Assembly: GCF_006345805.1 (NCBI RefSeq)
Contig: NW_021829106.1
Span: forward strand, 1 to 7,039
Reading direction: 5' to 3'
Length of the DNA: 7,039 nt
DNA from: Octopus sinensis
Taxonomy: Eukaryota
The notes under the pieces are model-generated. The model had not been told where the DNA came from, did not search any database, and was given only the letters and a program-made list of their open reading frames with translations. This document shows positions 2,642 to 7,039 of the stretch, piece after piece (position 1 is the first letter of the stretch; every line of letters begins with the position of its first letter). The translations under genes and the position numbers were made by a program.

Positions 2642-3143
2642 TTATGAATACATTGACGTATTCGTACAATCTGGTGCTTAAATACACTTGAATGTAACCA
2701 AGTTCCTGAAACCTATTTTTGCGCTGTGTAACCCAGTGTGGAAGGATTTATACGCTTATTTCTACGCGAGAAAGTATCTGTTGGTGCTTTCTCTTGAACG
2801 ATTGCATGAGAGGTTTTGCGTTTGTGTGTGAGGTGAACGTCTGGGTTGACGTACAAACGTGTGTACGACTGAGTTCTAAACATGTGACTCATGTTAACAC
2901 ATTTAACCTTTAAATTACAAAACTGAGAATGAACGATATGTTAGAAAGTTCAAGCAGTTTCCAGATTAAAATCTTTACGTACAGATATTTGACATTTAAT
3001 AACCATTTTGTTTCTTTTCCTTTTTTTCATTTAATTTATTTATTGATTTGAAAATCTTATATGAATTCAAATGTTCTGTTGATTTCTAAATCCCAGCGCA
3101 ACAACACAAATGTTTCAAAAAATAAGATGCATCCGTTTCAATA

Positions 3144-3250
3144 TTGACCCCTGCCTTCATTATTTGTACTTGACCGGTACTTAATTTCATCGACCTCCGA
3201 TGGAATAGGAGCAAATTAGCCTCGGTACAATTTGAAATCAGAATATTAAG
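3144..3250 (-). mobile_element. Degraded partial copy of the tRNA-derived SINE at 5798-6018, opposite orientation
   Basis: TTGACCCC...GGTACTTAATTTCATCGACCTCCGATGGAATAGGAGCAAATTAGCCTCGGTACAATTTGAAATCAGAA aligns by eye to the reverse complement of the 5798-6018 copy (TTGACCCC...GGTACTTAATTTATCGACCTCGAAAGAATGAAAGGCAAAGTCGACCTCGGAGGAATTTGAACTCAGAA). Confidence 0.85.
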
Positions 3251-3325
3251 ATGTTTCGGTGCCTAGCTTCGGTATCAGGTCACTTTTCGATTGGCAGCCG
3301 GAACTCTTGATTCCAGCAATTGACT

Positions 3326-4087: not shown

Positions 4088-4319
4088 AACGACAAGCTGG
4101 CTGAGTTCTTAGCACTTCGGACAAGATGCATAGCGACATTTCATTCGTCTTTATGTTCCGAGTTCGAATTCCGTCGATGTCAACTTTGCCTTTCATCCTT
4201 CCGGGGGTCAATAAAATAAATATCATTTGAGCACTGGGGAGGAGGGGGTCTAATGTAATCGCCTCGATCCTACCTTCAACCGCCAAAATTGCAGGCCTAG
4301 TGGTTAAAGTAGAAACAAC
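4088..4319 (+). mobile_element. Full-length, older copy of the tRNA-derived SINE
   Basis: Collinear with 5798-6018: head AACGACAAGCTGGC..TTAGCAC, B-box GTTCGAATTCC at 4162-4172, central GTCAACTTTGCCTTTCATCCTTCCGGGGGTCAATAAAATAA, 3' CCAAAATTGCAGGCCTAGTG..GTAGAAA. Confidence 0.9.
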
Positions 4320-5678: not shown

Positions 5679-5797
5679 TGTATGCCTGAAATTATATAAT
5701 ACATAATATCACTGTACCACTCAGTGAACCAGATTATTAAATGTTATTATACAACGCTGGTCACAATGCACTTCCAAACGATGTTGTCGCTTTCAAA

Positions 5798-6018
5798 GGC
5801 GGCGAGCTGGCAGGAACGTTAGCACGCCGGGCGAAATGCTTAGCGGTATTTCGTCTGTTGCTACGTTCTGAGTTCAAATTCCTCCGAGGTCGACTTTGCC
5901 TTTCATTCTTTCGAGGTCGATAAATTAAGTACCAGTTGGGTACTGGGGTCAAACTAATCGACTGTCTCCCCAACCTTCCCCAAAATTTCGTGCCTTGTGC
6001 CTTGAGTAGAAAAGGATA
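5798..6018 (+). mobile_element. Intact tRNA-derived SINE (Octopus-type) with target-site duplication
   Basis: Head GGCGGCGAGCTGGCAGGAACGTTAGCACG, B-box GTTCAAATTCC at 5872-5882, central GCCTTTCATTCTTTCGAGGTCGATAAATTAAGTACCAG (recalls conserved Nin/Deu-type SINE body motifs). Flanked by TTGTCGCTTTCAAA (5784-5797) and TTGTTGCTTTCAAA (6019-6032). Two further copies in the window. Confidence 0.93.
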
Positions 6019-6304: not shown

Positions 6305-6311
6305 ATAGAAG

Positions 6312-6460
6312 TACTCACTTTTATGTACTCTATTGCTAGACACTACCATTGCCTGTTATGTACTTCATCACTGGACTATTCGCTATTTTGTACTCTATTA
6401 TTTGACAAGACTACTCACTGTTATGTACGCCATTTCTAGACAAGATGACACGCTGTTATG
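6312..6460. repeat. Degenerate ~32-35 bp minisatellite, about 4.5 units
   Basis: Units start near 6312, 6344, 6377, 6412 and 6447; rough consensus TACTCRCTGTTATGTACTCTATTNCTAGAC(AAGAC); the GTAC core recurs at 6325, 6360, 6390 and 6425. Confidence 0.8.
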
Positions 6461-6690
6461 TTTTTTTCATGTGTCAGGTCGCTATCGATTCCCTACCCCC
6501 GGTGGAGAACACCTTTGTGCCACACAGGCGACAACCCTCAAACGCATGGGTCTGTTTCGGGGTAATCGCTGCTGGTGAGGGTTTTACAAGGTCGGCGAGT
6601 AAATCCTACCTCAGAACTTTTCCAATCGCCTTTTATGACATGCAGAGGAAACGTTGGGTCTCTTCTTTAACACGCCGACCTCCACACAAC
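6461..6690 (-). mobile_element. RTE-clade LINE 5'-UTR-like segment (possible SINE body), non-coding
   Basis: Minus strand: GTGTGGAGG...TTTCCTCTGCATGTCATAAAAGGCGATTGGAAA (cf. recalled RTE-type CCCTGCGTGTCGTAARAGGCGAC) and, at 6507-6461, CTCCACCGGGGGTAGGGAATCGATAGCGACCTGACACATGAAAAAAA (cf. recalled CTCCAGGTTGGGGGTTGGGC..GGCTAACAACCTCACCCCGTAAAAA). Both motifs are in the expected order. Similarity judged from memory, not by alignment. Confidence 0.55.
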
Positions 6691-6697
6691 ACAGAAT

Positions 6698-6855
6698 ACC
6701 TCTCGACCGGACGTGGCACTGAAACCCTGGGACCCCGGGGTGGCAATGTGCGTTCAAGGTGTCGATGTTCACTAAGTCTTGCAATTCAAATCAGTTCTCG
6801 TAGAAAATCATGCTTTTCATCGACGGACGATCCGAGTGAACACAGGGAAATGTAC
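6698..6855 (-). pseudogene. Dispersed, diverged, near full-length 5.8S rRNA-derived sequence
   Basis: Minus strand carries 5.8S motifs in order and with plausible spacing: TCACTCGGATCGTCCGTCGATGAA (6839-6816), GAATTGCAAGAC (6787-6776), TGAACATCGACACCTTGAACGCACATTGC (6771-6743), GC-rich hairpin region CCCCGGGGTCCCAGGG and 3' end GCCACGTCCGGTCGAGAGGT (cf. GCCACGCCTGTCTGAGGGTC). The conserved GAAGAACGCAGC is eroded to GAAAAGCATGAT. No 18S/28S nearby. The 5' boundary is approximate. Confidence 0.9.
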
Positions 6856-6954: not shown

Positions 6955-7039
6955 AGACCCTCCCTGCTTTGGTCACGAATGACCACGGGATTGCACCTAG
7001 AAGGTTCCCCCTCCGAGGTACAATTTCGTGCAAGGCAGT
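6955..7039 (-). mobile_element. Probable 3' end of another SINE/LINE-tail repeat, cut by the window edge
   Basis: AGACCC..TTTGGTCACGAATGACCACGGGATTGCACCTAGAAGGTTCCCCTCCGAGGTACAA resembles, from memory, an abundant Octopus interspersed repeat; contains the stem-loop GGTCA-CGAA-TGACC at 6971-6984. Confidence 0.55.

What the first reader, a model, noticed from the sequence alone, without database searches (positions are those of the whole stretch)
6312..6855. Candidate 5.8S rRNA-headed SINE or 5.8S-RTE chimeric retroelement
Seen: on the minus strand a near full-length 5.8S-like sequence (about 6855-6698) stops at the mature 5.8S 3' end. Within about 10 nt it is followed by a segment with two ordered motifs resembling an RTE-clade 5' UTR (6687-6461), then an A-run, a ~33-bp minisatellite and (TATG)n. 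Established: SINE heads usually derive from tRNA, 7SL or 5S and rarely from snRNA or 28S; RTE 5' parts contribute SINE middle bodies, including in cephalopod Ceph-SINEs; small RNA-LINE chimeras such as U6-L1 arise by reverse-transcriptase template switching. Inference: this is a one-off 5.8S-RTE template-switch insertion or a member of an amplified SINE family with a 5.8S head. The latter would be unusual because 5.8S is a Pol I product with no internal promoter. I cannot confirm that it is undescribed, and no clear TSD or RTE 3' tail was seen.
Basis: partly seen in the sequence, partly recalled or inferred. Interest (0 to 1): 0.85.

Follow-up and report, generated by a model that had tools for sequence, protein, structure and literature searches.

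The report
One-off 5.8S rRNA–SINE chimeric retrocopy
A decayed copy of the 5.8S ribosomal RNA is fused end-to-start to the body of a common short mobile element, likely because a reverse transcriptase jumped from one RNA to the other; this fusion occurs once, but about thirty separately joined 5.8S–mobile-element fusions lie elsewhere in the same genome.

Summary
On the minus strand a 5.8S pseudogene (6839-6699, 81.6% to the host 5.8S, no ITS) is joined through a 6-nt filler to the headless body of an abundant tRNA-headed SINE (6692-6487). Three searches found this junction only here; sequencing runs of two organisms bridge it. The wider pattern is the real result. Of 68 5.8S-core matches in the genome, 38 lack ITS, and 30 of these are followed within 50 nt by a same-strand SINE or retroelement tail (background 36 of 952; ITS-bearing fragments 0 of 11). 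No two junctions match (0 of 465 pairs), and TSDs enclose 13 of 18 testable composites (control 9 of 306). U6 and 18S 3' ends are captured likewise, and one U6+5.8S+SINE triple exists. Best reading: repeated independent template jumps by a LINE reverse transcriptase onto RNA 3' ends, as known for U6-LINE/SINE chimeras. The window copy has no TSD and lacks the SINE's 3' end, so its origin is inferred by analogy. RTE origin of the body is unproven. My searches found no 5.8S chimera in print; this scan earlier noted 18S-SINE and 5S-SINE fusions in other genomes.

The parts
6699..6839 (-). 5.8S rRNA pseudogene, positions 17-157 of the 159-nt Rfam span, no ITS1 or ITS2; ends at the commonest end point of this genome's ITS-less 5.8S copies
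   Evidence: RF00002 58.3 bits; 81.6% to host rDNA L033; end at 157 in 10 of 38 ITS-less copies, window included; ITS tests negative
6693..6698 (-). 6-nt T-rich junction filler (TATTCT on the minus strand), assigned to neither partner
   Evidence: bridged by contigs in runs X2, X4 and X11
6487..6692 (-). Headless body of an approximately 390-bp tRNA-headed SINE family (here SINE-D); profile positions 136-345 of 404; the family's last ~55 nt and (CTA)n tail are absent
   Evidence: 793 candidates; 86% to the family majority, members 83-92%; nhmmer E 7e-59
6461..6467 (-). A7 run; too short to be a poly(A) tail and not a feature of the family
   Evidence: family ends
6306..6460 (-). Degenerate 35-bp minisatellite (about 4.6 units), single-copy; probably flank or a later local change rather than part of the element
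   Evidence: TRF period 35; units; one match in the genome
6083..6305 (-). (TATG)n microsatellite; common in this window and not shown to be the element's tail

Best explanation
This is a single, old, decayed fusion of a 5.8S rRNA copy to a SINE body, likely made in one insertion when a LINE reverse transcriptase copying the SINE RNA jumped onto the 3' end of a mature 5.8S rRNA. Shown: the anatomy, the lack of ITS, the single junction, and about 30 further 5.8S fusions with different partners and junctions, many enclosed by TSDs. Inferred steps: (1) target-primed reverse transcription began on a SINE-D RNA; (2) the enzyme reached the RNA's 5' end at the body boundary, where many family copies begin; (3) a few untemplated bases were added, or a short 3' tail of the 5.8S RNA was copied, giving the T-rich filler; (4) the enzyme continued on 5.8S from position 157 and stopped near its 5' end; (5) the copy never amplified, as it has neither the SINE's tRNA head nor a known promoter, and it later lost its 3' end and TSD. 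The responsible LINE was not identified.
For: Of 68 5.8S-core matches (reversed-pattern control 0), 38 lack ITS. 30 of 38 (29 of 37 without the window) are followed within 50 nt by a same-strand SINE or tail hit, against 36 of 952 background points and 0 of 11 short ITS-bearing fragments. TSD score >=8 around the whole composite in 13 of 18 SINE-A composites, against 9 of 306 swapped pairs. The window's 5.8S ends at the modal position 157 (10 of 38) and has a T-rich filler like the others (T 72 of 155 bases in the first five positions, background 31%). Both halves are equally aged: non-CpG differences 16/100 and 28/190; across 15 SINE-A composites the divergences of the two halves correlate (rho 0.57, p 0.025). 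0 of 465 composite pairs share a junction. The same capture is seen for U6 (14 of 24 loci examined) and 18S 3' ends (5 of 20 by eye); L107 is U6+5.8S+SINE with a TSD. The junction is bridged in three runs from two organisms and three studies. Precedent: U6 chimeras with L1, L2, RTE-like LINEs and SINEs (PMC4476161); R2 jumps to U12 and tRNA (PMC3414825).
Against: The window copy has no TSD (402 of 500 shuffles score as high; no shared 8-mer) and lacks the SINE's 3' end (685 of 1000 shuffles as high), so single-event insertion is not directly shown here. It is the only one of the 30 composites with a SINE-D partner. 3 of the 18 TSD tests scored 4 or less and 2 scored 6. 8 of 38 ITS-less copies scored negative (L043 is positive by eye). 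DNA alone cannot separate template jumping from RNA ligation.
Confidence: 0.78

Rival explanations
1. Same chimera, but joined as RNA first: an RtcB-type ligase linked a trimmed 5.8S 3' end to a SINE RNA with a free 5' end, and the ligated RNA was then retrotransposed.
For: Shown for U6/L1 (PMC6789731, passages). The window's partner starts in a zone where 14 of 36 other family copies start (profile 122-155), as a cleaved RNA end would. A T-rich filler could be a copied U-rich tail.
Against: Nearly every junction carries a different filler of a few to about 45 nt, whereas the ligated U6/L1 junctions in PMC6789731 are U6's T-tract joined directly to L1. Many partners are full-length Pol III-type SINEs, whose 5' triphosphate is not the 5'-OH that RtcB needs (established knowledge). 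Three unrelated RNAs (5.8S, 18S, U6) are captured.
Confidence: 0.1
2. Chance adjacency: a 5.8S pseudogene and a headless SINE-D copy arrived separately, or a later deletion brought them together.
For: No TSD and no 3' end at this locus. SINE-D is abundant (793 candidates). The 3' side has clearly been altered, so deletions occurred.
Against: Background adjacency is 3.8% against 79% for ITS-less 5.8S copies. Same strand, 6-nt gap, 5.8S end at the modal position, body start at the family's start cluster, and matching ages.
Confidence: 0.09
3. The locus is a member of an amplified SINE family with a 5.8S head.
For: Head-body arrangement; families with 28S- or snRNA-derived heads exist (PMC5786205 introduction). 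The genome searches score only the best candidates, so very decayed sisters could be missed.
Against: No second copy of the junction; 0 of 29 module loci with 5.8S upstream; the 3' part is single-copy; 0 of 465 pairs of 5.8S composites share a junction; differences among the 5.8S copies are mostly private CpG decay (alignment).
Confidence: 0.03

Closest known systems
U6 snRNA chimeric retropseudogenes with LINEs and SINEs (U6-L1, U6-L2, U6-RTEX, U6-Mon-1, U6-AnolisSINE2; Doucet et al. 2015, PMC4476161; passages and section 10 read)
   Same: Small RNA at the 5' side, retroelement at the 3' side, same strand, TSD around both, each event independent; explained by template switching, also with SINE partners.
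   Different: The 5' partner here is 5.8S rRNA, a Pol I product (the paper has 0 occurrences of 'rRNA'). Junctions carry variable T-rich fillers. The window copy itself has lost its TSD and 3' end.
28S rRNA/LINE-1 and other small-RNA/L1 chimeras (PMC11838501; passages read)
   Same: rRNA sequence fused 5' of a retroelement, mostly in sense; attributed to ligation or template switching.
   Different: There, internal 28S fragments on mammalian L1 (n = 18) and 0 mentions of 5.8S. Here, near-complete 5.8S ending at or near its 3' end, mostly on SINEs, forming most of the ITS-less 5.8S copies found.
R2 in vivo template jumps to U12 snRNA and tRNA (Eickbush and Eickbush 2012, PMC3414825; passages read)
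   Same: [quoted passage not shown]
   Different: Site-specific R2 in rDNA; no 5.8S; here no amplification is seen.
SINEs with unusual heads (SINE28, SINEU) and tRNA + RTE-5'UTR SINEs including Ceph-SINEs (Kojima 2018, PMC5786205; parts 1-4 of 5 read, supplement searched twice)
   Same: Head-plus-body layout; the paper's model of SINE birth (a template switch adds a small-RNA head to a headless unit) predicts intermediates like this one.
   Different: Those are high-copy units with near-identical structure; this is single-copy. The Ceph-domain motifs are absent and RTE homology of the body was not shown.

Membership tests
Small RNA-retroelement chimeric retrocopy (U6-L1 type) | 5' part copied from a mature cellular RNA, without its genomic flanks | tested here: met
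   5.8S positions 17-157, no ITS1 or ITS2
Small RNA-retroelement chimeric retrocopy (U6-L1 type) | Retroelement directly 3', same orientation | tested here: met
   SINE-D body 6 nt downstream, same strand
Small RNA-retroelement chimeric retrocopy (U6-L1 type) | One TSD enclosing both parts, with the element's 3' tail | tested here: inconclusive
   None found in the window, but the SINE's 3' end, where the downstream TSD would lie, is missing. Met for 13 of 18 sister composites.
Small RNA-retroelement chimeric retrocopy (U6-L1 type) | Independent origin of each copy (unique junction) | tested here: met
   0 of 465 pairs
SINE family with a 5.8S head | Many dispersed copies sharing head, junction and ends | tested here: not met
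SINE family with a 5.8S head | Family 3' tail recognised by a partner LINE | tested here: not met
   SINE-D 3' end and (CTA)n absent; 6306-6520 single-copy
SINE family with a 5.8S head | Transcribed as a unit | not testable with these tools
   no RNA holder listed; no RNA run laid
Ceph-SINE | Ceph domain (CORE-like part plus the RTE-derived part printed in PMC5786205) | tested here: not met
   The motifs quoted are absent from the window and from the family majority; four module motifs occur 0 times in the supplement
SINE with an RTE 5'-UTR-derived body | Body homologous to the 5' UTR of an autonomous RTE | tested here: inconclusive
   3 matches to the undecayed core motif are all SINE-D copies; no hit at E<0.01 in 20 of 150 RT loci, most 5'-truncated; Repbase and Dfam not available
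tRNA-headed SINE (partner family SINE-D) | tRNA-like head with A/B-box-like motifs, body and simple-repeat tail in full-length copies | tested here: met
   Family level: 16 of 36 copies start at the head; relaxed ARAGORN calls in 10 of 13 heads, anticodons inconsistent; (CTA)n tails. The window copy holds only the body.

The most novel reading that the evidence does not exclude
This genome's LINE machinery routinely captures the 3' ends of mature ribosomal RNAs (5.8S, 18S) as well as U6, even twice in one insertion (U6+5.8S+SINE). The T-rich fillers after the modal 5.8S end are copied oligo(U)-rich tails of 5.8S trimming or decay intermediates. The chimeras would then be a dated fossil record of rRNA 3'-end metabolism and of the step that gives SINEs new heads.
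Probability: 0.2. Interest if true: 0.65.

Novelty: new variant of a known kind. Interest (0 to 1): 0.42.

Why it matters
The locus itself is a dead one-off. The set it belongs to extends small RNA-retroelement chimeras to 5.8S rRNA and to an invertebrate-type SINE system, at a scale (30 of 38 ITS-less 5.8S copies) that allows statistics on junctions, fillers and ages. It shows the intermediate that the template-switch model of SINE birth predicts, and suggests why such heads usually fail: about 30 captures and no sign of amplification, consistent with 5.8S bringing no promoter. In practice, dispersed '5.8S genes' in such assemblies are mostly retrocopies and should not be counted as rDNA loci.

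Tried and rejected
ITS2 or ITS1 origin of the flanks: rejected. Assembly artefact: rejected, junction bridged in X2, X4 and X11; X6 listed no bridging piece, which proves nothing. Amplified family: rejected. TSD in the window: none; the unconstrained TSD scan was too noisy and was replaced by the anchored test. A decayed remnant of the SINE's 3' end in 6486-6400: not above shuffles (685 of 1000). Autonomous RTE carrying the body as 5' UTR: not found; the top RT hits were on unplaced contigs and I took 20 chromosome-placed loci of 150. Motif search of papers for the body core: 0 papers. Expression: no RNA holder listed, no evidence either way. miRNA and snoRNA hits are below their cut-offs and almost all lie on TA/TG microsatellites; no ORF of note. 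In one search two of eight reference slices were cut in the wrong orientation and gave no first hits, and one partner family head was not in the set, so L043 scored negative. Not examined: 24 of 48 U6 matches (21 in one tandem array, 1 tandem duplicate, 2 more unfetched) and 16 of 36 18S-end matches (rDNA units and unplaced contigs). Earlier-findings look-ups by words and by genome returned nothing.

Full report
Setting. The window is a whole 7,039-bp unplaced contig (G000:C5577) of a 2.72-Gb assembly. I take it for an octopod genome from recall (size, about 30 chromosome-scale contigs); no call establishes this. Positions 'rel' count along the host 5.8S of rDNA locus L033, where the Rfam model spans 1-159.

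The observation. Rfam finds 5.8S on the minus strand at 6854-6714, 58.3 bits against a cut-off of 42. Against the host's own rDNA the homology is 6839-6699, rel 17-157, 81.6%. Neither flank matches ITS1 or ITS2 (best hits 8-10 bp), so the copy has the bounds of the mature RNA. A 6-nt filler follows, then a module at 6692-6487, an A7 run, a 35-bp minisatellite and (TATG)n. Contigs bridge the junction in runs X2 and X4 (organism B) and X11 (organism D; one contig over 6306-6782 with 21 substitutions and 7 gaps); X6 listed no bridging piece. The locus is real and older than the split between those organisms.

What the module is. It has 793 first-look candidates, 40 scored. The 29 fetched copies define a family of about 390 bp with a tRNA-like head, a body and a (CTA)n tail, here called SINE-D. 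The window matches profile positions 136-345 of 404 (E 7e-59) and is 86% identical to the family majority, within the members' 83-92%. Of 36 other copies, 16 start at the head, 6 at positions 46-107 and 14 at 122-155, so the window's partner begins in a start cluster; the copies were found with body queries, so later starts could not appear. The family's last ~55 nt are missing in the window, and 6306-6520 occurs once in the genome. RTE origin was not shown. Four module motifs occur 0 times in the supplement of PMC5786205, and the Ceph-domain motifs quoted there are absent from the window. The three matches to the undecayed core are SINE-D copies without an RT-like ORF. None of 20 RT loci, taken from 150, matches the module; most are 5'-truncated, so this is inconclusive.

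Is it a family? No other locus spans the junction in the 400-bp search, the 141-bp junction search (40 of 136 scored) or the gapped exact pattern (1 match, the window). None of 29 module loci has 5.8S upstream. These searches give lower bounds, but all three agree.

The wider pattern. A CpG-tolerant 5.8S core pattern gives 68 matches, reversed control 0; all 68 were examined. 30 extend into ITS and 38 do not. 30 of the 38, window included, are followed within 50 nt by a same-strand hit to a SINE or a retroelement 3' tail. The background is 36 of 952 flank points (57 if points already inside an element count), and 0 of 11 short ITS-bearing fragments. Partners differ: mostly one family (SINE-A, full-length or only its 3' end), also SINE-B, SINE-C, bare 3' tails and, once, SINE-D. 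In the 18 composites with a recognisable SINE-A 3' end, the bases after that end recur just upstream of the 5.8S with score >=8 in 13, against 9 of 306 swapped pairs; 2 scored 6 and 3 scored 4 or less. So TSDs enclose 5.8S and SINE together. Among 31 composites no two share 5.8S end and filler (0 of 465 pairs). The commonest 5.8S end is rel 157 (10 of 38, window included; 4 more at 156). The first five bases after the 5.8S are 46% T against 31% in flanks. Divergence of the two halves correlates across 15 SINE-A composites (rho 0.57, p 0.025), and in the window it is 16/100 and 28/190 outside CpG. At one position most composites keep a C where today's rDNA has T, while four little-diverged ones (L043, L045, L059, L062) carry the T; this fits copying from the rDNA of the day, not from one master copy (inference).

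Other RNAs. 14 of 24 U6 loci examined (of 48 matches; tandem copies collapsed) are followed by such elements. Of 20 18S 3'-end loci fetched (of 36), 5 stop within 3 nt of the end motif and run into a SINE or tail-like sequence, two with clear 15-18-bp duplications; this was judged by eye, and three others stop there but continue in ITS1-like sequence. L107 carries full-length U6 (100.1 bits), then 5.8S (80.7 bits), then SINE-A, inside one TSD-like duplication.

Mechanism. The simplest account is target-primed reverse transcription of a SINE RNA, run-off at its 5' end, a few extra bases, and a jump to the 3' end of an abundant RNA. R2 RT adds untemplated bases at run-off (PMC2718515, passages) and jumps to U12 and tRNA in vivo (PMC3414825, passages). 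RNA ligation, shown for U6/L1 (PMC6789731, passages), is the main rival; variable fillers and full-length SINE partners argue against it as the rule, but DNA cannot exclude it. For the window the single-event origin is inferred from strand, 6-nt gap, modal end, filler, start cluster and matching age. Against it: no TSD (402 of 500 shuffles as good; no shared 8-mer), no 3' end, and no other SINE-D composite. I give 0.78 to the jump, 0.10 to ligation, 0.09 to chance adjacency and 0.03 to an amplified family.

What is in print. U6 chimeras with L1, L2, RTE-like LINEs and SINEs are described (PMC4476161; passages and section 10), as are 28S/L1 chimeras (PMC11838501; passages; 0 mentions of 5.8S). 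The table rows on rDNA-derived elements seen in PMC10946416 list 5S- and 28S-derived SINEs and none from 5.8S (passages). PMC5322556 screened with 5.8S as a query, and the passages seen report only 18S and 28S tailless copies among nucleolar rRNAs. An octopus repeat annotation does not use the words rRNA or chimer (PMC13282606; passages). PMC4758252 (passages) gives general support for module exchange by template switching; PMC8136502 uses 5.8S only as a control (passages). Searches (listings) showed no paper on 5.8S-retroelement chimeras. The library lacks most subscription papers; Repbase, Dfam and the Buzdin, Akasaki, Longo and Ohshima originals were not seen, nor were the supplements of PMC11838501. 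Two unchecked notes of this scan report 18S-SINE and 5S-SINE fusions in other genomes.

Verdict. A real, single, decayed 5.8S-SINE chimeric retrocopy, one of about 30 independent ones in this genome. It is a known kind of product with an apparently unreported 5' partner, and not a new SINE family. Interest 0.42.

Noticed in passing
L107 (G000:C7:7426770-7429198), minus strand, 1415-1151 and downstream: Tripartite chimera: full-length U6 (100.1 bits) directly followed by 5.8S (80.7 bits) and a full SINE-A, with a 16-bp TSD-like duplication around all three; would need two successive jumps.
   Followed up: yes
L132-L135, L138, L159, L162-L164, L170-L174: Many dispersed U6 copies are fused to SINEs or to short retroelement 3' tails (14 of 24 examined; L137, L161, L168 and L169 also by eye). 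L159 holds two tandem U6+SINE-B units.
   Followed up: partly
L179, L183, L184, L185, L195: 18S fragments that stop at the mature 18S 3' end and are fused to a SINE or a tail-like sequence; L179 and L184 show 15-18-bp flanking duplications.
   Followed up: partly
L041, L047 (G000:C8597, C8223) and other unplaced contigs: A second, AT-rich rDNA type with short spacers and a 5.8S that does not align to the host's by blastn; many top RT hits also lie on unplaced contigs, including C8597 and C8223. Possibly a co-assembled parasite or contaminant.
   Followed up: no
L048-L050, L053, L054, L056, L057, L063, L069 (mostly G000:C18, 3.8-4.7 Mb): An amplified set of rDNA fragments that all begin at 5.8S position 6 and run about 930 nt into ITS2, behind a shared GC-rich non-ITS1 upstream sequence; a duplicated rearranged unit.
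   Followed up: no
L139-L158 (G000:C1, 141.83-141.95 Mb): Tandem array of more than 20 variant U6 copies spaced about 1.1-1.4 kb apart.
   Followed up: no
SINE-D copies L002-L030, L087, L176: 14 of 36 copies lack the tRNA head and start within about 30 nt of the head/body boundary, suggesting a body-only unit, a cleavage site or an RT stop there.
   Followed up: partly
L044, L100, L116, L120: Short duplications of target or 5.8S-start sequence just upstream of the 5.8S 5' junction, as if second-strand priming was attempted more than once.
   Followed up: no
window 5796-6017 (+) and 6967-7039 (-): An ordinary SINE-A copy and the 3' end of a SINE-C copy; SINE-A-like decayed pieces also appear near 3130-3260 and 4090-4310 (by eye).
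   Followed up: partly
L066 (G000:C5:33978984-33982142): 5.8S (12-159) followed by about 150 nt of unassigned sequence, with a 24-bp duplication on either side and extra bases before the 5.8S; the partner was not identified.
   Followed up: no
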